From Giardia intestinalis (lineage: Eukaryota): a stretch of DNA of 64,000 nucleotides. The notes under the pieces were generated by a model. It was given only the letters and a program-made list of their open reading frames with translations. It made no database searches and was not told the origin of the DNA. Positions 43,066-59,666 of the stretch are shown here, piece after piece. Both the position numbers and the translations under genes were made by a program. The DNA is taken from NCBI GenBank assembly GCA_000002435.2, contig CM018792.1; one strand, given 5' to 3'. Position 1 is the stretch's first letter. Each line of letters begins with the position of its first letter.

Positions 43066-43204
43066 TTTTAATTTCAGTTCCACCGTACCACTTGTGGGTG
43101 CCTAGGTGGACGCCAACTTCTGAGGGTCCCACAGCAGAAACACTATGCTAGAATTATTCGTTGAACGAGGAGAAATAAAAAACTCATTCACATAGGACTT
43201 CGTG

Positions 43205-45721
43205 ATGATCTTCGTTTTGCTTTTTCTTTTAGGCGGAGTCTTCTTCGAGTGCACCACAGATAATGAATGTGGTGGTGATGGAGGAGTTTGTGACGTTGCA
43301 ATAAATGGGAAAAGATACTGTTCCAAGTGCGCAGGTAGCGATGCGGGAGCACGAGTGCCCATCAATGGAAAATGCAGACTGCTGAGCCTCTCACGGAGCA
43401 TATGCACAGTGCCCACGGGCAATAACCCTAATCCAGGCACGTGTACGGGCTGCATCCGTGACTTCCTCTTCTACAGGGGCGGGTGCTACCGCACGGCATC
43501 CCTGATCAACGCCATATGCAAGGAGAAGCACATCGTCGAGGAGGGGATGTACTGCGGGGCGTGCGCCATAGAGGGCGACGTCCCGATCGACGGGGTGTGC
43601 GTATCAGCAAGCACAGATAGCTCTGGAAACACGTGCGACAAGGGCGTGTGCACGACATGCGCAAGCGGATACTTCTTCCACTACGGGTCATGCTACAAAT
43701 TCGGAGGATCTCCAGGCAGCACTGTGTGTCCTAAGCCAACTAGCACTACTGGCTCTGTCTGTGATTCTTGCGGGTCGAAGTTCGTCAAGAACCCCAGTGC
43801 GAGCCCATCTGCCACCTCCTGCCTCGCGTGCTACGGCCTGGACGGGACCCTCTTCTGCGAGCGCTGCCGGATGAACGTGCTCACGAGCGCAGACGTGAAG
43901 CCCACTCTGTGCACACAGTGCAAAATAGGCTACGTGCCCGTGGATGGTCGTTGTGTGTCAACTTACTCTGCCACCTCGGCTCTTGCAGGGTGCTCTACCT
44001 ATAGCGGTAATGAGAATACAAAGGGACTTTGCGAAACGTGCTCCTCCGGCTACATGCTCTTCTACGGGAGCTGCTACTCTGTCAACGGCCCCCTCGCCCA
44101 GGCCATCTGCAAGACCGAGAACCAGATCTACCTTGGGGGAAGGGTCTTCTGCAAGCAGTGCGCCCAGGCAGACCACTACCCCATCAACGGCTTATGCATT
44201 GCTGATAAGGGATCACATACGTGCGAGGCGGGTATCTGCACAATATGCGACACCAGCACAACCCCCGTCGACAACTCCAAGGTTTTCCCGTTCTATAACG
44301 GCTGCTATGATGCAAACTCTGCAATCGGAAAGCTAATATGCCAGGAGGCGTCTAATGGAGCGTGCTCAACTTGCAATACAAACGAGACATCGAATATAAT
44401 AGCTAATCCTAATTCTGCAGATGGCCAACCAAAATGTCTTGGATGTTGGGACGAGGCAGCTACTGGGGTGGCCAACTGCGGAGGGTGTGCGACCGGCACA
44501 GACGGCGATTCCAAGATCGTCTGCAGCAAGTGCACCGACTCGACGGAACCCAAAGACAACACGTGCCCTCAGGCCCTCCCGCCCACAACGCCTGAAGGAT
44601 GCGCCGTGCAGGGCTGCCAGGCGTGCTCGAAGGACTCCCCCACGACGTGCGACGCCTGCTTCGAGCCTCTCATCATGAAAGAGGACAAGACGAAGTGCTT
44701 CGGGAGTTGCCTGGCGCTGGGCCCGGGCTACTACAACAACTCTGGGATATGCAGCCCATGCATAGAGAACTGTCTCCTTTGTACAGACGGGGCCACGTGC
44801 TCCCAGTGCGACGAAGGATATTATCTTGAACTATCGTCTGCTAATTCATCACAAGGTACTTGTAAGAAATGCGCTGCTGGCTGTTCTGCATGTAATGATG
44901 GCACTGACACTAGTTGTACAGCGTGCCTTCCTGGGTATTACATTGCAAGTGAGTCAAAAGCAAATAGAGCTGCAAAGTGTGTTCTATGTAACACTACTGA
45001 AAGCGACTACACTGGAATTCCAAATTGTATCGCTTGCTTTAGTACCGTAGGAAACAATGGGGCAAAGAATGTTAGGTGCAGTCAGTGCGAAGAAGGATAT
45101 ATTAAAAAACACAATGGATCTCAAGTTGTTTGTGAGCCTCCAACTCCAGAATGTAATGCCGCAATGTGCTCGGTTTGTGTTGAAAATAACCCAGATCGTT
45201 GTGAGCACTGCACGACCGGCGCGTACCTCTGCCCGCGGACGGCGGCGTGCACGAAGGACTGCGCCAGCTGCGGGGGCTCGATGTACCCCGACGAGGACCT
45301 CGGGGAGTGCCAGCCGTGCGACATCGCGAACTGCCGGGTCTGCGCGACGGGGCTCAAGTGCGAGAGCTGCGCGGAGAGCGCCGTCCCCATCTCCCCGGAC
45401 GTCTACCACACGGCGTGCATGGGCTGCAGCGACACCGGGGGCATGGACGGCTGGGTGGGCCTCGCGGGGTGCACGACCTGCGAGCTGACCGACAAGGGCG
45501 GCGGGAGCGTCAACTGCCTCGACCCTGGCTACTACCGGCGGGGCGGGCTCGGCGGGGGAGCAATCGCCGCCATCGTCATCGTCGTCCTCCTCGTCCTGGC
45601 CGTCGCCGGCTTCCTCGTCTGGTGGTTCGTCTTCAGGAGGGGCGGCCGGCCCAAGCGCGGGGCGAAGTACACATCGCTCATGCGGGGCGAGTCCTACGAC
45701 TACCGCCAGTCTCTAATATGA
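43205..45721 (+). CDS. High cysteine membrane protein (VSP-like cysteine-rich type I surface protein)
   Basis: The track start at 43202 is a GTG, and the ATG is at 43205. There is a signal peptide (MIFVLLFLLGGVFFEC), about 11% Cys with dozens of CxxC/CxC pairs, recurrent GGCY-like motifs (RGGCYR, YGSCYK, YGSCYS, NGCYD), and a single TM near the C-terminus (GAIAAIVIVVLLVLAVAGFLVWWFVF). The cytoplasmic tail is RRGGRPKRGAKYTSLMRGESYDYRQSLI, which is not the VSP CRGKA tail. AGTAAAC lies 7 nt after the stop. Confidence 0.85.
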   Translation: MIFVLLFLLGGVFFECTTDNECGGDGGVCDVAINGKRYCSKCAGSDAGARVPINGKCRLLSLSRSICTVPTGNNPNPGTCTGCIRDFLFYRGGCYRTASLINAICKEKHIVEEGMYCGACAIEGDVPIDGVCVSASTDSSGNTCDKGVCTTCASGYFFHYGSCYKFGGSPGSTVCPKPTSTTGSVCDSCGSKFVKNPSASPSATSCLACYGLDGTLFCERCRMNVLTSADVKPTLCTQCKIGYVPVDGRCVSTYSATSALAGCSTYSGNENTKGLCETCSSGYMLFYGSCYSVNGPLAQAICKTENQIYLGGRVFCKQCAQADHYPINGLCIADKGSHTCEAGICTICDTSTTPVDNSKVFPFYNGCYDANSAIGKLICQEASNGACSTCNTNETSNIIANPNSADGQPKCLGCWDEAATGVANCGGCATGTDGDSKIVCSKCTDSTEPKDNTCPQALPPTTPEGCAVQGCQACSKDSPTTCDACFEPLIMKEDKTKCFGSCLALGPGYYNNSGICSPCIENCLLCTDGATCSQCDEGYYLELSSANSSQGTCKKCAAGCSACNDGTDTSCTACLPGYYIASESKANRAAKCVLCNTTESDYTGIPNCIACFSTVGNNGAKNVRCSQCEEGYIKKHNGSQVVCEPPTPECNAAMCSVCVENNPDRCEHCTTGAYLCPRTAACTKDCASCGGSMYPDEDLGECQPCDIANCRVCATGLKCESCAESAVPISPDVYHTACMGCSDTGGMDGWVGLAGCTTCELTDKGGGSVNCLDPGYYRRGGLGGGAIAAIVIVVLLVLAVAGFLVWWFVFRRGGRPKRGAKYTSLMRGESYDYRQSLI

Positions 45722-47371
45722 TTCCCCAGTAAACGGAGCTATCGCCTGCCGGTGCCTGTCTCTGAACGCGCATATCCCGGAGATGTCGACGGAGCCGAGG
45801 AGCCTCCGCACCCGCAAGCGCTCCCCCGGAAAGGGCTCGGTGTCCGCCGTCTTCGAGATCGACACGCTGCACTCTGCGGCATCCGACGCGACGCAGGAGA
45901 GGCCGTTGTGGAGCACCACCCGGGAGATCTCGCTGACGTGGACGGACAGCATGGGCCGCAGGATGCACACTCGATGCCTGGCCCTGCTGGCAAAGTCCCT
46001 GACCTCGCAGTTGTAGTACCCCCGGAGCCCGAAGAAGGAGGCCCCGTGGACCCCGGTGATCGCCAGGGTCTCCAGGTCGTCCAGCAGGTGGTGGCCGAGG
46101 GCCAGGGCGTCGTAGCCGCCGGCGGACACAAAGCTCGCCAGTGTTCCGCGGCGGCAGCGAGAGCAGACGCTGCACGCAGACGCCTTCCTGGCCTCCTGCC
46201 CCGATGCATCCAGGCGGGCGATCTTGGCCGAGACGTCCATCCCAACCACCTGCTGCTCGAACGTCATGGCTCCCTCTGCGGCGTCGTCGATCGACAGCGC
46301 GCACGGGCAGAGGCTCCGTATCGTGTCCAGGATGAAGCCGGGTATCTTTGGGTCGAAGGTCACAGGGGTCACTTCCAGCGCCCCCAGGTCTCCTAGGCCG
46401 ATGGGGTCGAGCAATCCTCGTCTGGCCATTAGAGACAAAAGGGAAAGGTGAAGAAGAAGGCAGAGGCTGTCTTTTCCTCCTGAAAAGGCCACAGCTACTC
46501 GACGCAGGTTGCGAACGCGCTTTTCTCCAACCATAAAGGCAGCAATAGCGGACAGGACAGAGGTTGATGGACAAAAGGACTTGTGGACCACGTCCCCTTT
46601 ATCAGTTCTAAAGATAATCTTGACCGAAGCTAACTTATCTTGAATTGACGCCGAGGCAAAATACTCTGGAGAGCAATTGACCCTAAAATCACTGTTTGCC
46701 TGCAGCGTATGTCCTCGAAGCAACGCAGCAAAGGCTGAAGTAATATTTCTCAGGGCATGAGGGTTTATCTCTAGACTACTTGTGAGATACGACATAATCT
46801 TCAACGAATCACCAGGAGGTTCGGTAAAGCGCTTCCTGGCGGGCTGTGGGACAGTATGAGCTTCACCTGTGCATCCACTGATAAAAGAATCGAAATCCGG
46901 AGCGCATTGGAGCGAGTCAAGCTGGGTATCAGCTATGTAGAGGTACACATACATGATGCTATTTCGTGATGGCCCAGCCACGGTCGTTGCTGAAAACATT
47001 TCTAGGAACCAGTTTCTTCCCAACGTACTGTTTCTTGACCAATCTACCTCGAGGAAAAGCTTCTTATCTGGAAAGCAGGTAGAAAGCTCTTCGAGATCAG
47101 AGCAAGTCGTTAGCCCAAACGCTTGGCTAAGGCGATTTGTTATCTCCAGTGACCCGATGAGGCAGAGAGGAAAGAGTCCTCTTATCTTTCTCGCTGTGTG
47201 ATAAAGAAGTACTACGGCGAAGGCATAGTCGCGAATGGCTTTGTCGTCAGACAAGGGCTTGAGGAAATAAAAGACGGCCTTCTCCAGGACAGCTGTATCA
47301 TAGAGGATGTAAAGAGCCTGCTGAACGTGGCCGAGAGCGCTTTTCGGGGGTCTAAGAGAACGCTCGTGCAT
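45713..47371 (-). CDS. PP-loop ATP pyrophosphatase of the TtcA type (tRNA 2-thiolation family) with a ~220 aa N-terminal extension
   Basis: 552 aa, with an ATG verified at 47371. The C-terminal half has the PP-loop VAVAFSGGKDSLCLL, then CSVCSRCRRG (TtcA CSLCSRLRRG), ALGHHLLDDLETLAI (TtcA ALGHHRDDILQTLFL) and VCILRPML...LSCVASDAAECS (TtcA VIRPLAYC...IPCNLCGS). It lacks the flanking CxxC zinc fingers of Ncs6/Ctu1/TtuA. The first ~220 residues have no recognised homolog. The catalytic half is encoded by >70% GC DNA. Confidence 0.72.
   Translation of the reverse strand: MHERSLRPPKSALGHVQQALYILYDTAVLEKAVFYFLKPLSDDKAIRDYAFAVVLLYHTARKIRGLFPLCLIGSLEITNRLSQAFGLTTCSDLEELSTCFPDKKLFLEVDWSRNSTLGRNWFLEMFSATTVAGPSRNSIMYVYLYIADTQLDSLQCAPDFDSFISGCTGEAHTVPQPARKRFTEPPGDSLKIMSYLTSSLEINPHALRNITSAFAALLRGHTLQANSDFRVNCSPEYFASASIQDKLASVKIIFRTDKGDVVHKSFCPSTSVLSAIAAFMVGEKRVRNLRRVAVAFSGGKDSLCLLLHLSLLSLMARRGLLDPIGLGDLGALEVTPVTFDPKIPGFILDTIRSLCPCALSIDDAAEGAMTFEQQVVGMDVSAKIARLDASGQEARKASACSVCSRCRRGTLASFVSAGGYDALALGHHLLDDLETLAITGVHGASFFGLRGYYNCEVRDFASRARHRVCILRPMLSVHVSEISRVVLHNGLSCVASDAAECSVSISKTADTEPFPGERLRVRRLLGSVDISGICAFRDRHRQAIAPFTGESY
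45728..45734 (+). terminator. putative polyadenylation signal AGTAAAC (AGTRAAY) 7 nt after the HCMP stop codon
   Basis: It matches the AGTRAAY motif described for Giardia mRNAs and lies directly after the TGA at 45719-45721. Confidence 0.45.
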
Positions 47372-47379
47372 AGAGGGTG

Positions 47380-49407
47380 TTAAATTTTGAAAAGATTCGC
47401 CATCTCCAGCAATAGCGGCAACAGTGGTTCGAGGTGTGAAGCACCTTTATTACTCTGCAATCTGGAGTGCAGGCTTTCGTACAATGCACTTGTCTGAGGC
47501 TGTTTTTTAACGGCTTCTGGAAGAAGGGAATATGCCTTAAAAGCAAGGCTGTCCTCTGGGATTGCTGGTGGAGAAGCCTGGACTTGTGGTGTCACAAGTG
47601 TCGCCTCCACTTGCTCGGTTTTTGGTGTCTGTTGATCAGCTGTGCAACTATCTATAAGTCCACCTGAAACACTAGCTCTGAGCTCCTCAACCAGACGTGG
47701 AGCATCTGGAGTCCCAAGTGCCATCAGTATGGATTCTGAAAGCCCAACGTCACACTGAGGTGATTGTAAAAAGCGCCCTGGATACGCGGCCCGGGGATCA
47801 GCCAGTCCCGAAATGGCAGAAACGGTAAGCCTATCGCGAATGCCTGTGTGCCCTCTCTCGTTACCTGCAGGCATTCCAGATGTGGAGAGGCCCAAGTTCA
47901 CGTTCACTCCAACGCTTCCAGCTAGGGAGCGAGTGAAGGCGTACTTGGAATGTGATAAGCTCTGGCCGGTATCGATGCCCGTGACTGTCTGAGATGCTGA
48001 GGTGACCGATGCAATTGTGTCCTCCAGAAGGCTCAGATTCCCCATAGACGCTTGCGAGAGGTCAAGGCCCCCGGAGTCCTCCTTGTCTAGAACAACGGTG
48101 ATGTCACCATGTGTATTCTTCATGATCATTGGCTTGTATGCCAAGACGATGTTGACCGTGTTCTCAGTAGCAGGCGGCTGTGCAGCCTCCGGGGCTGCGT
48201 GAAGAATGCTTACACGGGTGCTTCGAGCAAGAGAGTTCGGGTGTCCGATGGCCGTAAAGATATTAGTCTCAATAAATCCTAGATTGCGTACTTCGTCACG
48301 CACAAGCTTGTGCACCTCGAATATGCTGACACGGTCCTTGGGGCGCTGGACAAGACACAGGGAAATAATGTTCTTGAGTGCGTCTGAATACTTGACACGC
48401 TTGTCCTGAAAGCTGAACTCTGCGCGATAGTTATAGCGAAGATCGTTGTCTGGAAATGGCAACCGTCTATACATCAGTCGATACAGCAATATTCCGAAGG
48501 CAAAGACATCAACAGCAGTGCCCAGGGGAAATTCAGGGTCGATCTTGATCTGCTCGGGGGCCCGGAAGCACGGGGTTGTCTTCAGCTCCAAGGACCTCAT
48601 CAAATCCTTCATCCCCTGCTCATTGTTCTTCATTAGATCTTGAAGCCTCTCGGAATCGTAAGACTCTGTGGTGCAGGATCCAAAGTCACAAAGCCTAAGA
48701 AGCTCTGGAAACTTGGTTGTGCAGCCATTATTGGCCAGTATATCGTCCAAATCATATGGCTCCAAGATCAGAATATTTTCTAACTTGAGGTCTCGATGTG
48801 AGCACCCCTTGCTGTGCAGACAGAGAATAGCAAGGGTGATGTTGTATGCAAACCTCCATATGAGTGGTTCTGGAAGAAAGACCTTGCGCTCTGAACATTT
48901 AATAAGGAGTTTGACGCAGTTCCCGCCCGAGCAATATTCAAGCAGTAGGCGGATAGTGGTGCAAGGAAGCCTTTTCATGCTATGCTTTCCCCCGTCCTGG
49001 ACTCCATGTCCCACACCGGGGACGGGGAGCGCGGAGGATGACAGCTTTAGTTCACGTTCCTGGGGCGCAAATTGTGATGATGTGATACTTGATGCTAGAT
49101 AGGACTGGGAACTGTGCATGCCATTTACGGTTAAATACTCATCAAAACACGCAAAATCTGCAGGGATATAAGTATCATCTAGAAGTAATCCGTGGAATCT
49201 AACAACACACTTTTCGTTGTTGAATCGGAGATGGAAGTAGATCTCTGTTATTGCATCATCATAAACCTTCAGGTCTGACACAGAAAGATGCTTCAATACA
49301 TACTGTTCTCCCGCACAGGATGCAGAATAAATGCGTGCAGATCCGCCCCTTGCAATCTCTTGGCCCACAATGATCTCCTTGTCTCCGAAACGCAAAATGC
49401 TATCCAT
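47380..49407 (-). CDS. Ser/Thr protein kinase, NEK-like (Giardia-type expanded NEK family)
   Basis: 675 aa, with an ATG verified at 49407. It has a Gly-rich loop GQEIARGGSARIYSA, lysine VLKHL, catalytic loop HRDLKLENILI, DFGS, and APE (FRAPEQ). An ~80 aa insertion lies between subdomains II and VI. There is a ~300 aa Ser/Thr/Gly-rich C-terminal tail without ankyrin repeats. Confidence 0.85.
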   Translation of the reverse strand: MDSILRFGDKEIIVGQEIARGGSARIYSASCAGEQYVLKHLSVSDLKVYDDAITEIYFHLRFNNEKCVVRFHGLLLDDTYIPADFACFDEYLTVNGMHSSQSYLASSITSSQFAPQERELKLSSSALPVPGVGHGVQDGGKHSMKRLPCTTIRLLLEYCSGGNCVKLLIKCSERKVFLPEPLIWRFAYNITLAILCLHSKGCSHRDLKLENILILEPYDLDDILANNGCTTKFPELLRLCDFGSCTTESYDSERLQDLMKNNEQGMKDLMRSLELKTTPCFRAPEQIKIDPEFPLGTAVDVFAFGILLYRLMYRRLPFPDNDLRYNYRAEFSFQDKRVKYSDALKNIISLCLVQRPKDRVSIFEVHKLVRDEVRNLGFIETNIFTAIGHPNSLARSTRVSILHAAPEAAQPPATENTVNIVLAYKPMIMKNTHGDITVVLDKEDSGGLDLSQASMGNLSLLEDTIASVTSASQTVTGIDTGQSLSHSKYAFTRSLAGSVGVNVNLGLSTSGMPAGNERGHTGIRDRLTVSAISGLADPRAAYPGRFLQSPQCDVGLSESILMALGTPDAPRLVEELRASVSGGLIDSCTADQQTPKTEQVEATLVTPQVQASPPAIPEDSLAFKAYSLLPEAVKKQPQTSALYESLHSRLQSNKGASHLEPLLPLLLEMANLFKI

Positions 49408-58100: not shown

Positions 58101-58223
58101 CAGAGATTCTAGCTCGTTTTACATAAATTTGCAACCATTAGTGTTATTACGCAATGATGACTTGAACGTAAATGAAGGTAAAAAGTGCACTTAAACTTAG
58201 CACTACAAATTCGCGACCTGGTG

Positions 58224-59666
58224 ATGAGCCTCAAGGTGAAGGTGGCTTCCGATCTTAACACCTTGCCTGAGGAGTGTGTGGTGCCGTTGAAGCCGGCAGA
58301 TGCGCCATCTACGGGAACCGTCAAACTACGGCTCAAGGCTTGCGATGCGGCCCCAGTCAGTTCTACCCCGGTGAAGATCACAATCAACGACTGCCTGATG
58401 TGCAGCGGGTGCGTGACCTCTGCTGAGGAAGTCTTTTTCCGAGAGCTGAACACCACAGCTTTGCAAAATGCAATTACTTCAGGACCAAAGGCAGGGCGTC
58501 CCATCGTTCTTTCGCTCTCCCAGTCAGCCATTCTATCCTTGTCCAGAGTCTTGCTAGACATCACGTCAGTAGAGCCTTGTACAGTGGACACCCTCTTCAA
58601 GCAACTTGAGTACGCTTTGCGAACCCGCGTTGCTGGCCTCCGGCATTGCACATATGAAGACGCACCGCCTGTCTATGTTGTTTCAGAGGCCCAGCACCAG
58701 GAGCAATCTGTACTTATGAACGTCCGCCAGATCTCATTTCTCATGCAATCTTCCGAGCCGCGTTCAAACATTGCTATCATCACCCACTGTCCAGCTGTGC
58801 GACTCTTTATTACGAAGAGGAACAGAGAGCTGATCTCATACATTGTCTCAACAGCCTCCCCAATGGAGCTCTTTGGTGCCAGCTACTGTGGTATAGACGC
58901 ATCGCCACTTCTGGTCTCAATCCAACCGTGTCAAGACAGGAAGCTGGAGCAGTTTCGGGGCGCTGCGGTGGACGTCTGCCTGACCGCTCAGGAGGTGCAT
59001 AGCTTCCTTGCAGGGACCCCTCAGGGCTCATCACCCCCTGCTTTCTGTTCTTCCTACACACCCTCTCCCACATCCTTCTGGCAGTATGCACTAGGCCCCC
59101 TTCTAGTTCTGTACCTTCGGGCCAAAGAATGGATATCAGATGAAGGTCTGTCGCGTCTTTTGGTACAACGCGCCGATGGAGTTGACCTTCACTGGACTAA
59201 GATTGGTAACGAGCTTTTTTCTTGTACAATTGAGCTTTCACAAAATCAATCTCCCTACTCTTGCGTCATAATATACAAGTCCACCGGATATCACAATCTG
59301 CAGAACCTCGTCCGGCGAATTCACGCTCTGTGCCCCAACAAGAGCGCCCTTTATATACTTGATCTCCATGCTTGTCCCTACGGGTGCTATGGCGGGGCCT
59401 GCATTGCAGGGGATGACAGACACCCGGTCAGCTCTGTCGCATCTGCGTCTCATGCAGCAACGATGAGCGCCGATAAGGCTGTGCTCTCCCACATCCTTGC
59501 AGCGGACACTTGCGCAGGTTTGCTTGAAGGACTGGTGCAGGCTGTGGACAGAATCACCCTCCAGGAGACTGTCATCAGAACGGATGGCGAGGTCGTCAGT
59601 CCCGAGGAGATCGCAGCGCGCAAAGGCATCCAGAGCGGCGTCCGGATCCAGGACCTTGCATGGTGA
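58224..59666 (+). CDS. NAR1: Nar1/NARFL-like protein ([FeFe]-hydrogenase-like cytosolic Fe-S assembly factor), divergent
   Basis: The track start at 58185 is a GTG, and the first ATG is at 58224. The N-terminus ASDLNTLPEECVVPLKP...VKITINDCLMCSGCVTSAEEVF matches the NARFL N-terminal cluster motif ([20 protein letters not shown]...VSLNDCLACSGCITSAETV). The C-terminal GYHNLQNLVRRI...LDLHACPYGCYGGA matches GFRNIQNVV...VMACPSGCLNGGG. The middle H-cluster-like motifs are degenerate (ITHCPAV in place of TSCCP/SACPGW, and no MPC..K). Confidence 0.72.
   Translation: MSLKVKVASDLNTLPEECVVPLKPADAPSTGTVKLRLKACDAAPVSSTPVKITINDCLMCSGCVTSAEEVFFRELNTTALQNAITSGPKAGRPIVLSLSQSAILSLSRVLLDITSVEPCTVDTLFKQLEYALRTRVAGLRHCTYEDAPPVYVVSEAQHQEQSVLMNVRQISFLMQSSEPRSNIAIITHCPAVRLFITKRNRELISYIVSTASPMELFGASYCGIDASPLLVSIQPCQDRKLEQFRGAAVDVCLTAQEVHSFLAGTPQGSSPPAFCSSYTPSPTSFWQYALGPLLVLYLRAKEWISDEGLSRLLVQRADGVDLHWTKIGNELFSCTIELSQNQSPYSCVIIYKSTGYHNLQNLVRRIHALCPNKSALYILDLHACPYGCYGGACIAGDDRHPVSSVASASHAATMSADKAVLSHILAADTCAGLLEGLVQAVDRITLQETVIRTDGEVVSPEEIAARKGIQSGVRIQDLAW

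What the first reader, a model, noticed from the sequence alone, without database searches (positions are those of the whole stretch)
45713..47371. Bacterial-type TtcA-like tRNA thiolase fused to a ~220 aa novel N-terminal domain
The C-terminal ~300 aa carry the full TtcA motif set: the SGGKDS PP-loop, CSVCSRCRRG, GHHxDD and the distal Cys pair. They lack the N- and C-terminal CxxC zinc fingers that mark the eukaryotic Ncs6/Ctu1 and archaeal TtuA/NcsA branches, so the enzyme resembles the [4Fe-4S]-dependent bacterial s2C32 thiolase more than the canonical eukaryotic cytosolic U34 thiolase. It is preceded in the same ORF by ~220 residues with no recognisable homology. The catalytic half sits in the GC-rich island, whereas the N-terminal half has host-like composition. 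Possible explanations are an anciently acquired bacterial-type gene that gained a lineage-specific targeting or regulatory domain, or a divergent eukaryotic TtcA. In either case the architecture is unusual, and its tRNA substrate in this organism is unknown.
Basis: partly seen in the sequence, partly recalled or inferred. Interest (0 to 1): 0.62.

Follow-up and report, generated by a model that had tools for sequence, protein, structure and literature searches.

The report
Giardia TtcA-like thiolase, dead twin domain
This Giardia gene encodes a divergent, probably iron-sulfur-dependent tRNA-thiolating enzyme of the bacterial TtcA type; its "novel" front end looks like a decayed copy of the same ATP-binding fold, and its GC-rich back end is a repeated, gene-converted DNA segment, not a sign of foreign origin.

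Summary
The ORF is real. It is Giardia intestinalis WB XP_001708332 ("PP-loop family protein", 552 aa). It is full length in assemblage B and two other Giardia lineages and under purifying selection throughout (omega 0.08-0.26).

- **Catalytic domain.** Residues ~269-552 form a very divergent TtcA-type PP-loop domain. It carries SGGKDS, FDPKIPGF, CSVCSRCRRG and GHHLLDD, plus one invariant distal Cys (C501), which is not a CxxC pair. The three invariant cysteines match the E. coli TtcA [4Fe-4S] ligands C122, C125 and C222. There are no terminal zinc fingers. It falls far below the TtcA equivalog cut-off (53-55 vs 272 bits), so C32 specificity is an inference.
- **N-terminal extension.** It is ~268 aa, not 220, and not Giardia-specific: Spironucleus and Barthelona orthologs have one too. 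Its first ~110 residues give a modest but in-register profile match to the first half of PP-loop domains. The motif relics are SDGGIES and DGSLQS. This suggests a dead/active tandem, though the evidence is suggestive rather than conclusive.
- **GC island.** It starts at codon 322, after the PP-loop motif, and is mainly a third-codon-position effect (GC3 0.86 in WB vs 0.54 in assemblage B). It coincides exactly with a segment shared at 97-99% with truncated paralogs. The best reading is concerted evolution with GC-biased gene conversion, not horizontal transfer.

Interest is moderate.

The parts
45713..47371 (-). Complete ORF, 552 aa plus TAG stop (45713-45715). It is the G. intestinalis WB 'PP-loop family protein' XP_001708332.1.
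   Evidence: Full-length orthologs are 66-68% identical in two other G. intestinalis-group lineages and 28% identical in a more distant Giardia-like organism. Omega is 0.08-0.26 in all segments against assemblage B.
47036..47362 (-). Residues 4-112: predicted alpha/beta (beta-alpha-beta-alpha) subdomain, interpreted as a degenerate, catalytically dead PP-loop-like domain. The SGGxDS position is occupied by LKPLSDDKAIRDY.
46568..47035 (-). Residues 113-268: faster-evolving region of unknown fold between the two domains.
   Evidence: pLDDT is below 50. Omega is 0.26, the highest of the gene. No profile signal to PP-loop domains: score 15.1 against shuffles of 13.2 +/- 2.4. No hits beyond Giardia.
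45716..46567 (-). Residues 269-552: TtcA-type PP-loop ATP-pyrophosphatase (tRNA sulfurtransferase) domain.
   Evidence: Pfam PF01171. NCBIfam TtcA at 52.7-55.5 bits is the best family. BLASTP against E. coli TtcA gives E = 3e-12. The deep search found 1421 PP-loop proteins with E <= 1e-3, all matching this part only.
46466..46483 (-). [quoted passage not shown]
   Evidence: Invariant in all 7 family members. It lies outside the duplicated segment.
46334..46357 (-). FDPKIPGF (residues 339-346), matching E. coli TtcA NLDQKQPGF.
46145..46174 (-). CSVCSRCRRG (residues 400-409). C400 and C403 align with E. coli TtcA C122 and C125, two of the [4Fe-4S] ligands.
   Evidence: Alignment to E. coli CSLCSRLRRG. 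Invariant in the family and in 63 homologs. Ligand assignment comes from PMC4081106.
46076..46096 (-). GHHLLDD (residues 426-432), the conserved LGHHxDD helix of TtcA, TilS and TtuA enzymes.
45869..45886 (-). SDAAEC (residues 496-501). C501 is the proposed third cluster ligand, equivalent to E. coli C222. The non-essential E. coli C219 position is Ala here.
   Evidence: C501 is invariant in all 7 family members and nearly invariant in 63 homologs. The essential E. coli cysteines are C122, C125 and C222. The C501-to-C222 register is my manual adjustment of a MAFFT alignment that was two residues out.
45685..46408 (.). GC-rich repeated segment: the last 231 codons of the gene plus a few bases beyond the stop. 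It is shared with truncated paralogs that lack the PP-loop motif, and is read as a gene-conversion tract.
   Evidence: Two WB paralogs of 272 aa are ~99% identical from residue 322 on. DNA matches: 99.6% (L006, L007), 97-99% (L008, assemblage A2), 88.9% (L005, assemblage E), all ending at 46408. GC3 is 0.86 here against 0.54 in the assemblage B ortholog. The A2 and E truncated-copy loci are collinear orthologs.
43202..45721 (+). Convergent VSP-family / high-cysteine membrane protein gene (839 aa) overlapping the thiolase gene by 9 bp. Its 3' end (45200-45721) forms the other half of the GC island, and the gene belongs to the larger duplicated block 43224-46408.
   Evidence: Pfam PF03302 VSP, 136 bits. 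The same convergent 9-bp overlap occurs in assemblage B (L004) and beside the truncated copy in assemblage A2 (L008). Identity to L008 is mosaic.
47372..47389 (-). Intergenic spacer of 8 bp and an AT-rich initiator-like stretch (caaaatttaa) that contains the stop codon of the upstream kinase gene (47380-49407).
   Evidence: Sequence. The same kinase-thiolase order with a 9-bp spacer occurs in assemblage B. Promoter function is inferred, not tested.

Best explanation
This is a single, vertically inherited metamonad gene for a two-module PP-loop protein.

**C-terminal module (residues ~269-552).** It is a highly divergent member of the TtcA branch of [4Fe-4S]-dependent tRNA sulfurtransferases.
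- The SGGKDS loop binds ATP and adenylates the C2 oxygen of a target pyrimidine.
- A [4Fe-4S] cluster held by only three cysteines (C400, C403, C501) carries the sulfur on its free iron and delivers it, releasing AMP.
- By analogy with TtcA the product would be 2-thiocytidine at position 32 of cytosolic tRNAs.

**N-terminal module (~110 residues).** It is a decayed PP-loop-type alpha/beta domain that has lost the ATP-binding motif. Most likely it acts as a built-in pseudo-partner or tRNA-binding platform, as inactive Ctu2 serves active Ctu1, or as the second protomer serves dimeric TtcA. The ~155 residues between the modules are a fast-evolving region of unknown fold.

**GC-rich 3' third of the WB gene.** This is a separate, genomic phenomenon. 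That segment and the adjacent convergent VSP-family gene were duplicated before assemblages A and E split. The copies are kept nearly identical by ectopic gene conversion, which has driven third-position GC to 0.86.

**Shown:** gene integrity, motifs, conservation, family affinity, repeat structure and composition.

**Inferred:** cluster binding, thiolation chemistry, the C32 target, the role of the N-terminal module and the GC-biased conversion mechanism.
For: **One gene**
- The ORF is full length in four Giardia lineages.
- Omega is 0.08-0.26 in all four segments against assemblage B.
- Kinase / thiolase / convergent VSP synteny is conserved.

**TtcA type**
- NCBIfam scores: TtcA 52.7-55.5 bits, TilS_N 46-49, NcsA 17.8, TtuA 14.2.
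- BLASTP against E. coli TtcA gives 53.5 bits, E = 3e-12, with CS(V/L)CSR(C/L)RRG, D-K-PGF and ALGHH aligned.
- PDB hits to TilS and TtuA reach only 14-22 bits.
- C400, C403 and C501 are invariant in the 7-member family and correspond to the essential E. coli C122, C125 and C222.
- There are no terminal CxxC pairs.
- NJ tree: the family is monophyletic in 83% of bootstraps and NcsA+TtuA in 94%. The family plus E. coli TtcA separates from NcsA, TtuA and TilS in the best tree and in 55% of bootstraps.
- The Spironucleus ortholog is already annotated 'tRNA 2-thiocytidine biosynthesis protein'.

**N-terminal module**
- Two AF2 runs give a confident beta-alpha-beta-alpha unit for residues 10-112.
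- hhalign against PP-loop profiles gives P = 2e-4 to 4e-5, in register with the motif. The score of 34.5 is about 8 SD above block shuffles.
- Motif relics are SDGGIES (P0003), DGSLQS and DGSIQS (Barthelona), and NGEHTNS (Spironucleus).
- The top Foldseek hit is NAD synthetase, and about a third of the top 50 are NAD synthetases.

**GC island**
-, as detailed under parts.
Against: - The domain scores only 53-55 bits against a TtcA equivalog cut-off of 272. The TilS_N model scores almost as well. Family membership in the strict sense fails, and the target nucleotide cannot be read from sequence.
- Tree support for placing the family with TtcA rather than NcsA/TtuA is weak (55%). The tree is a distance tree on very divergent sequences.
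- The full-length AF2 model was poor for the catalytic domain (pLDDT below 50), so the spatial clustering of the three cysteines was not checked.
- The PP-loop-like reading of the N-terminus rests on P-values around 1e-4 from small profiles.
  - G. intestinalis sequences alone give no signal.
  - No Foldseek hit reaches E <= 0.001.
  - My shuffle controls destroy secondary-structure periodicity and are therefore lenient.
- Eukaryotic s2C32 is so far reported only in one 2026 preprint on Aplysia. Nothing is known about Giardia tRNA thiolation.
- GC-biased conversion is inferred from pattern, not measured.
Confidence: 0.6

Rival explanations
1. The protein is the metamonad functional equivalent of the cytosolic wobble-uridine (U34) 2-thiolase. 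Its dead N-terminal module plays Ctu2/Ncs2 and its active C-terminal module plays Ctu1/Ncs6, fused in one chain and fed by the Urm1/Uba4 sulfur relay. The product would be mcm5s2U34 rather than s2C32.
For: - Giardia has URM1, UBA4 and Elp3, so a U34 thiolation pathway is expected.
- I could not find a described Giardia Ncs6/Ctu1 in the literature, nor in the 40-protein Fe-S inventory.
- The dead-plus-active PP-loop arrangement mirrors Ctu2-Ctu1.
- NcsA, TtuA and TtcA share the same three-Cys [4Fe-4S] chemistry.
Against: - The signature motifs CSxCSRxRRG and DxxxPGF are of TtcA type.
- The NcsA and TtuA models score only 14-18 bits.
- The zinc fingers that define the Ncs6/TtuA group are absent.
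- The family does not group with NcsA/TtuA in the tree.
- I could not search the Giardia proteome for a canonical Ctu1, so its absence is unproven.
Confidence: 0.15
2. The PP-loop domain was recently acquired from bacteria and fused to a host-derived N-terminal domain. On this reading, the first reader's, the GC-rich island is the compositional footprint of the transfer.
For: - The nearest characterised enzyme is bacterial TtcA.
- Many of the top deep-search hits are ~250-aa proteins of bacterial TtcA size, some named TtcA by IMG.
- WB composition changes sharply inside the gene.
Against: - The GC step sits inside the catalytic domain at codon 322, not at the domain boundary.
- It is mainly a GC3 effect: 0.86 against 0.48 at third positions, with GC at positions 1+2 rising only from 0.48 to 0.56. 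It is weak in the assemblage B ortholog.
- It equals a repeat shared with truncated paralogs.
- The two-module gene is shared by Giardia, Spironucleus and Barthelona, so any transfer predates the divergence of these metamonad lineages.
- No bacterial hit exceeds 69 bits.
- In two of three tree subsamples the sister group is the eukaryotic cysteine-desulfurase-TtcA fusions.
Confidence: 0.1
3. The protein is a PP-loop enzyme with another chemistry, or a non-catalytic relic. It could be TilS-like lysidine formation or another adenylation-dependent base modification, and the N-terminal region is simply a novel domain unrelated to PP-loop folds.
For: - TilS_N scores nearly as well as TtcA: 46-49 against 53-55 bits.
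- The best PDB sequence hit is TilS.
- Every family cut-off is missed.
- The N-terminal structural matches are generic Rossmann-like folds.
Against: - TilS has no CxxC...C triad, whereas here the triad is invariant from Giardia to Barthelona.
- TilS substrate-binding C-terminal domains are absent.
- Giardia has no organellar bacterial-type tRNA-Ile(CAU) that would need lysidine (general knowledge).
- Purifying selection (omega 0.08-0.17) acts on the motif-bearing parts.
- The in-register PP-loop relics in the N-termini are hard to explain by chance.
Confidence: 0.1

Closest known systems
Bacterial TtcA (tRNA cytosine(32) 2-sulfurtransferase; E. coli b1344; 'group I' TtcA family; NCBIfam NF007972)
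   Same: - SGGKDS PP-loop.
- D-x-K-x-PGF, CSxCSRxRRG and ALGHHxDD motifs.
- Three-Cys set matching the [4Fe-4S] ligands C122, C125 and C222.
- No terminal zinc fingers.
- It is the best-scoring characterised relative.
   Different: - Only 29% identity over 179 aa, and 53-55 bits against an equivalog cut-off of 272.
- Several insertions, for example residues 347-395.
- The CxxC at the third ligand is reduced to a single Cys.
- A ~268-aa N-terminal extension is present.
- It is eukaryotic and presumably cytosolic.
- TtcA works as a homodimer; here a dead domain is fused instead.
Eukaryotic cysteine-desulfurase(CsdA/SufS-like)-TtcA fusion proteins (e.g. Aplysia LOC101861551, Cimex LOC106664088), linked to s2C32 in Aplysia tRNA-Lys(UUU)
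   Same: - A TtcA-type PP-loop domain sits at the C-terminus of a longer eukaryotic protein.
- These proteins are among the best deep-search hits (57-66 bits).
- They are the sister group in two of three NJ subsamples.
   Different: - The N-terminal partner there is a PLP-dependent aminotransferase class V domain (Pfam PF00266). It is not a degenerate PP-loop domain.
- The metamonad proteins have no desulfurase domain.
Ctu1/Ncs6-Ctu2/Ncs2 heterodimer, archaeal NcsA and TtuA ('group II' TtcA family)
   Same: - The same ATP plus three-Cys [4Fe-4S] thiolation chemistry.
- Ctu2 is an inactive PP-loop-fold partner of active Ctu1, the logic proposed here for the N-terminal module.
   Different: - The defining N- and C-terminal CxxC zinc fingers are absent.
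- The NcsA and TtuA models score 14-18 bits.
- The family sits on a separate branch in the tree.
- Here the two modules are in one polypeptide.
- No sequence link to Ctu2 was detected.
TilS (tRNA-Ile lysidine synthetase) N-terminal PP-loop domain (TIGR02432)
   Same: - The PP-loop domain fold and the LGHHxDD helix.
- The second-best NCBIfam hit (46-49 bits) and the best PDB sequence hit.
   Different: - TilS has no Fe-S cysteine triad.
- It carries C-terminal tRNA-binding domains.
- The score is below the cut-off of 93.6.

Membership tests
TtcA (group I, bacterial-type s2C32 synthetase) | PP-loop ATP-binding motif SGGxDS | tested here: met
   SGGKDS at residues 297-302, invariant in the 7-member family.
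TtcA (group I, bacterial-type s2C32 synthetase) | Central CxxC plus a distal Cys, the three [4Fe-4S] ligands (E. coli C122, C125, C222) | tested here: met
   C400, C403 and C501 are invariant in the family and conserved in 63 homologs. The ligand identities come from PMC4081106. Cluster binding itself is not testable here.
TtcA (group I, bacterial-type s2C32 synthetase) | Absence of the N- and C-terminal CxxC zinc-finger pairs that mark group II | tested here: met
   The only CxxC motifs are 400-403 and 403-406.
TtcA (group I, bacterial-type s2C32 synthetase) | Score at or above the curated equivalog cut-off (NCBIfam NF007972, 272 bits) | tested here: not met
   52.7 bits for the full protein and 55.5 bits for the domain.
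TtcA (group I, bacterial-type s2C32 synthetase) | Phylogenetic placement with TtcA, apart from NcsA, TtuA and TilS | tested here: inconclusive
   The NJ tree separates the family plus E. coli TtcA from NcsA, TtuA and TilS, but in only 55% of 200 bootstraps.
TtcA (group I, bacterial-type s2C32 synthetase) | Forms 2-thiocytidine at position 32 of tRNA | not testable with these tools
   This needs tRNA mass spectrometry and genetics. No Giardia data were found.
Ncs6/Ctu1/NcsA/TtuA (group II) | N-terminal and C-terminal CxxC...CxxC zinc fingers flanking the PP-loop domain | tested here: not met
   No such motifs are present.
Ncs6/Ctu1/NcsA/TtuA (group II) | Match to the NcsA or TtuA equivalog models | tested here: not met
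   NcsA scores 17.8 bits (cut-off 500) and TtuA 14.2 bits (cut-off 450). PDB TtuA hits reach 14-16 bits.
TilS | TilS N-domain model at or above cut-off, C-terminal substrate-binding domains, and no Fe-S cysteines | tested here: not met
   TIGR02432 scores 46-49 bits against a cut-off of 93.6. The Cys triad is present. No extra C-terminal domains are present.
PP-loop / adenine-nucleotide alpha-hydrolase fold (for the N-terminal module, residues 4-112) | Profile similarity in register with the strand / PP-loop / helix unit | tested here: met
   hhalign P = 2.3e-4, 3e-4 without family sequences in the target, and 3.8e-5 with only the non-intestinalis N-termini. Shuffle and reversal controls score 10-19 against 34.5. 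The significance is modest.
PP-loop / adenine-nucleotide alpha-hydrolase fold (for the N-terminal module, residues 4-112) | Structural match specific to PP-loop enzymes | tested here: inconclusive
PP-loop / adenine-nucleotide alpha-hydrolase fold (for the N-terminal module, residues 4-112) | Functional SGGxDS motif | tested here: not met
   The motif is replaced by LKPLSDDKAIRDY in G. intestinalis. Relics in relatives are SDGGIES, DGSLQS, DGSIQS and NGEHTNS. The module is therefore predicted inactive.

The most novel reading that the evidence does not exclude
Metamonads (Giardia, Spironucleus, Barthelona) carry a previously undescribed single-chain 'pseudo-heterodimeric' tRNA thiolase. It consists of a dead PP-loop domain fused upstream of an active TtcA-type [4Fe-4S] domain. 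This would reinvent the Ctu2-Ctu1 dead/active logic inside the TtcA lineage. It would install s2C32, or take over U34 thiolation, on cytosolic tRNAs of organisms that have no organellar translation. It would also be an overlooked cytosolic [4Fe-4S] client missing from the published Giardia Fe-S inventory.
Probability: 0.3. Interest if true: 0.6.

Novelty: new variant of a known kind. Interest (0 to 1): 0.4.

Why it matters
- **Eukaryotic s2C32.** If the enzyme is active, Giardia and its relatives would add a protist case of TtcA-type thiolation acting on cytosolic tRNA. Eukaryotic s2C32 has only just been reported, in one animal.
- **Giardia Fe-S biology.** The protein would add a [4Fe-4S] client to Giardia's small Fe-S proteome. 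That matters for the open question of what the mitosomal and CIA cluster machinery actually serves; the protein is absent from the 40-protein inventory.
- **Domain evolution.** A dead-plus-active tandem would be a neat case of a homodimeric enzyme turning into a fused pseudo-dimer.
- **Compositional caution.** The GC island is a clean warning example. A sharp compositional step inside a gene was produced by ectopic gene conversion with truncated paralogs next to VSP-family genes, not by horizontal transfer.
- **Annotation.** The two WB 272-aa 'PP-loop family proteins' lack the PP-loop and are probably gene fragments.

Tried and rejected
1. **Word-indexed searches.** Single-sequence and profile searches of the 5.8-billion-protein set returned only Giardia proteins. 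They added nothing for the N-terminal region.
2. **Exhaustive profile search.** The search of 1.84 billion representatives found no protein matching the N-terminal 270 residues outside Giardia. Homology to the Spironucleus and Barthelona extensions only emerged after re-aligning the N-termini separately.
3. **Pfam on the extensions.** No hits for the N-terminal extensions of P0003 and P0030-32.
4. **Family N-terminus against family C-terminus.** hhalign gave only P = 0.094, so an internal duplication of this gene's own catalytic domain is not shown. The signal needs a broad PP-loop profile.
5. **Residues 100-268 against the PP-loop profile.** No signal.
6. **Full-length AF2 with 4 sequences.** pLDDT 39, so the catalytic domain was unusable. 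The N-terminus-only run reached pLDDT 52. The AFDB50 fold library was unavailable.
8. **DNA of the two WB truncated paralogs.** The exact-protein look-up did not hold them. I used the assemblage A2, assemblage E and Logan copies instead.
9. **Literature.** Searches for this protein, for Giardia Ncs6/Ctu1 and for Giardia tRNA thiolation found nothing specific. Jager et al. 2004 is not held.
10. **Mitosomal targeting role for the N-terminus.** No supporting evidence. The protein does not occur in the held parts of the mitosomal interactome tables (some files were cut when stored). The extreme N-terminus aligns with helix alpha-1 of PP-loop domains rather than looking like a presequence.
11. **First NJ attempt.** The run with 144 taxa timed out. 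It was repeated with subsamples.

Full report
**What the window is.** The window is Giardia intestinalis assemblage A, isolate WB. The 552-aa product of ORF 45713-47371 (-) is identical to XP_001708332.1 / KAE8303554.1 / UniProt A8BA86, annotated 'PP-loop family protein'. Upstream on the same strand, 8 bp away, is a protein-kinase gene (47380-49407). Downstream, convergent and overlapping by 9 bp, is an 839-aa VSP-family high-cysteine membrane protein gene (43202-45721). The same kinase / thiolase / convergent VSP order is found in assemblage B isolate GS (L004).

**Observation check.**
- The motifs are all present: SGGKDS (297-302), FDPKIPGF (339-346), CSVCSRCRRG (400-409), GHHLLDD (426-432) and SDAAEC (496-501).
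- Pfam finds only PF01171 (37 bits).
- The best NCBIfam family is TtcA at 52.7 bits, then TilS_N at 46.3, NcsA at 17.8 and TtuA at 14.2. All are far below their cut-offs.
- The only CxxC motifs are 400-403 and 403-406, so the terminal zinc fingers of the Ncs6/TtuA group are absent.
- The 'distal Cys pair' is not a pair in the TtcA sense. Only C501 is conserved beyond G. intestinalis.
- The N-terminal extension is about 268 residues.

**It is one gene.**
- Full-length orthologs exist in assemblage B (P0002, 68% identity), in another G. intestinalis-group lineage (P0001, 66%) and in a distant Giardia-like organism known only from sequencing reads (P0003, 685 aa, 28%).
- Nei-Gojobori estimates for WB against GS give omega of 0.08 (codons 1-112), 0.26 (113-268), 0.17 (269-320) and 0.12 (321-552). 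The N-terminal part is therefore coding and constrained.
- An AT-rich initiator-like stretch lies directly upstream of the ATG and overlaps the kinase stop codon.
- Transcript structure itself could not be tested.

**What the catalytic domain is.**
- BLASTP against authentic E. coli TtcA (fetched from NC_000913) gives 29% identity over 179 residues, E = 3e-12. SGGKDS, D-K-PGF, CS(V/L)CSR(C/L)RRG and ALGHH align.
- Bouvier et al. showed that E. coli TtcA is a dimer whose essential [4Fe-4S] cluster is held by C122, C125 and C222, while C219 is dispensable (PMC4081106).
- In a seven-member family alignment C400, C403 and C501 are invariant, and they remain conserved in a 63-sequence alignment. 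SDAAEC aligns with E. coli PCNLCG with C501 on C222. This register is my manual adjustment of a MAFFT alignment that was two residues out.
- As a benchmark, E. coli TtcA itself hits archaeal NcsA at 52 bits and TtuA at 41-44 bits in the PDB. The Giardia protein hits TtuA at only 14-16 bits and TilS at 22.
- I built a distance tree of the domain core from 56 taxa: the family, E. coli TtcA, E. coli TilS, and the aligned portions of M. maripaludis NcsA and two TtuA sequences copied by hand from the HMMER alignments printed.
  - The metamonad family is monophyletic in 83% of bootstraps.
  - NcsA+TtuA are monophyletic in 94%.
  - The family plus TtcA separates from NcsA, TtuA and TilS in the best tree but in only 55% of bootstraps.
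- The protein therefore works like TtcA and belongs to the TtcA-like branch. It fails the strict equivalog test, so assigning C32 as the target is an inference.

**Relatives elsewhere.** The exhaustive profile search found 1421 proteins at E <= 1e-3, all through the PP-loop domain.
- After the Giardia sequences, the best hits are P0030 (Spironucleus salmonicida, 409 aa, already annotated 'tRNA 2-thiocytidine biosynthesis protein'), P0031 (Barthelona sp. PCE, 596 aa) and P0032 (Barthelona PAP020, 564 aa). Each has its own 190-320-aa N-terminal extension.
- The two-module architecture is thus shared by diplomonads and barthelonids. By general knowledge of metamonad phylogeny, this makes it old rather than a Giardia innovation.
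- Many further hits are 900-1400-aa eukaryotic proteins with an N-terminal aminotransferase class V (cysteine desulfurase-like) domain and a C-terminal TtcA-like domain, for example from Cimex.
- This is the fusion that a 2026 preprint links to the first reported eukaryotic s2C32, in Aplysia.
- In two of three tree subsamples these fusions are the sister group of the metamonad family, with roughly 60% support. That hints at a common eukaryotic TtcA-like lineage, but it may be long-branch attraction.

**The N-terminal extension.**
- Single-sequence and Pfam searches see nothing.
- Aligning the seven N-termini on their own reveals a common pattern: a conserved basic start (RSLKPPK), a helix, a hydrophobic strand, a short loop and a long helix.
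- The loop reads SDGGIES in P0003, DGSLQS and DGSIQS in Barthelona and NGEHTNS in Spironucleus. It is expanded to LKPLSDDKAIRDY in G. intestinalis. These look like relics of SGGxDS.
- Profile-profile comparison of this alignment with a 63-sequence PP-loop domain profile aligns residues 4-105 with the first half of the domain, in register with SGGKDS. The score is 34.5, P = 2.3e-4.
  - Reversing the query gives 10.5, and 40 block shuffles give 13.8 +/- 2.4 with a maximum of 19.2.
  - The signal persists without any family sequence in the target (P = 3e-4).
  - It is stronger with the non-intestinalis N-termini alone (P = 3.8e-5).
  - G. intestinalis sequences alone give nothing. They are linked to the others at P = 2.7e-4.
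- AlphaFold2 predicts a beta-alpha-beta-alpha unit for residues 10-112 with pLDDT 62-89 in two runs.
- The best Foldseek PDB hit is NAD synthetase, a PP-loop enzyme, at E = 0.023. About a third of the top 50 are NAD synthetases.
- Residues 113-268 have no detectable relatives or confident structure.
- I conclude, with moderate confidence, that the first ~110 residues are a degenerate, catalytically dead PP-loop-type domain.
- Its role as a built-in pseudo-partner is inference. The analogies are to Ctu2 with Ctu1 and to the second protomer of dimeric TtcA.

**The GC-rich island.**
- WB has two further 'PP-loop family proteins' of 272 aa (XP_001709625, XP_001707151). One is on the same chromosome-sized contig as the full gene and one is on another.
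- They are about 99% identical to residues 322-552, start with an unrelated 40-residue leader and lack SGGKDS.
- At the DNA level, truncated-copy loci from other isolates match the window up to exactly nt 46408:
  - L006 and L007 match at 99.6%.
  - L008 (assemblage A2) matches 43224-46408.
  - L005 (assemblage E) matches 45709-46408 at 88.9%.
- In L008 the truncated copy is again followed by a convergent VSP-family gene with a 9-bp overlap.
- Identity along the L008 match is mosaic. It is 97-99% over 45200-46400 and mostly 93-100% in the other GC-rich blocks. It is only 49-64% in the low-GC block 44800-45200 and random beyond 46408.
- The A2 and E truncated-copy loci are collinear at 86% up to the end of the copy, so the truncation predates the A/E split. 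Yet within assemblage A the full and truncated copies differ by only 1-3%. That is concerted evolution.
- Codon-position composition:

| Genome | Codons | GC3 | GC at positions 1+2 |
|---|---|---|---|
| WB | 1-320 | 0.48 | 0.48 |
| WB | 321-552 | 0.86 | 0.56 |
| GS ortholog | 1-320 | 0.42 | 0.47 |
| GS ortholog | 321-552 | 0.54 | 0.52 |

- The compositional step is therefore mainly a synonymous-site effect, specific to the lineage with paralogs, and it coincides with the conversion tract. GC-biased gene conversion is the natural, though inferred, explanation. It says nothing about bacterial origin.

**Context in Giardia biology.**
- Giardia has URM1, UBA4 (PMC7029713) and Elp3.
- The published inventory of 40 predicted Fe-S proteins lists neither this protein nor a Ctu1/Ncs6 (PMC10578589 S2 table).
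- I found no paper dealing with this protein or with Giardia tRNA thiolation.
- Whether Giardia has a canonical Ctu1/Ctu2 could not be checked with the tools available. That keeps alive the rival that this protein is the U34 thiolase.

**Verdict.**
- The TtcA-like reading is supported at the level of 'works like', and strict family membership is not met.
- The 'novel domain' is probably a decayed PP-loop module shared by several metamonads.
- The GC island is a gene-conversion artefact of segmental duplication.
- The gene is already annotated generically, and its Spironucleus ortholog is already called a TtcA. Novelty is therefore limited to the tandem dead/active architecture and the missed Fe-S candidate.
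- Interest is moderate (0.4).

Noticed in passing
window 58185-59666 (+): A 493-aa ORF with an iron-only hydrogenase large-subunit C-terminal domain (PF02906). It probably corresponds to Nar1 of the cytosolic Fe-S assembly pathway (KAE8303560.1 in the Fe-S inventory, six accession numbers from the thiolase). It lies about 11 kb from a candidate [4Fe-4S] client, which is probably coincidence.
   Followed up: partly
window 43224-45721 (+) against L008 6808-9312: The VSP-family gene is a mosaic relative to its assemblage A2 paralog. GC-rich blocks are mostly 93-100% identical, while the low-GC block 44800-45200 is only 49-64% identical. Identity and GC content rise and fall together, as expected for patchy GC-biased conversion among cysteine-rich surface-protein genes.
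   Followed up: partly
WB paralogs P0005 / P0006 (XP_001709625, XP_001707151); L005 6001-6777; L008 6001-6816: The 258-272-aa 'PP-loop family protein' annotations lack the PP-loop motif itself. They start with an unrelated leader (MAFPSNAERFDP...). They keep an open frame and omega of 0.15-0.23 against the full gene, probably through conversion rather than function.
   Followed up: partly
window 45678-46574 (-) and other frames within 45200-46400: Several long ORFs of 140-300 aa in alternative frames overlap the GC-rich island on both strands. They are typical stop-poor artefacts of high GC content, not genes.
   Followed up: no
window 47372-47389; L004 5992-6000: Only 8-9 bp separate the kinase stop codon from the thiolase ATG in both assemblages A and B. 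Any initiator element must therefore overlap the upstream coding sequence.
   Followed up: no
L002 1828-3885 (Logan SRR14944320): A 685-aa ortholog comes from an unidentified, GC-rich Giardia-like organism. It keeps the most PP-loop-like relic (SDGGIES) in its N-terminal module and carries large insertions in the catalytic domain. Its flanking genes differ from those in G. intestinalis.
   Followed up: partly
L005 beyond 6781 (assemblage E, P15): In P15 the similarity to the assemblage A2 truncated-copy locus stops right after the truncated gene. No VSP-family match follows, so the neighbouring surface-protein gene has been replaced or lost there. The region stays 58-65% GC.
   Followed up: no
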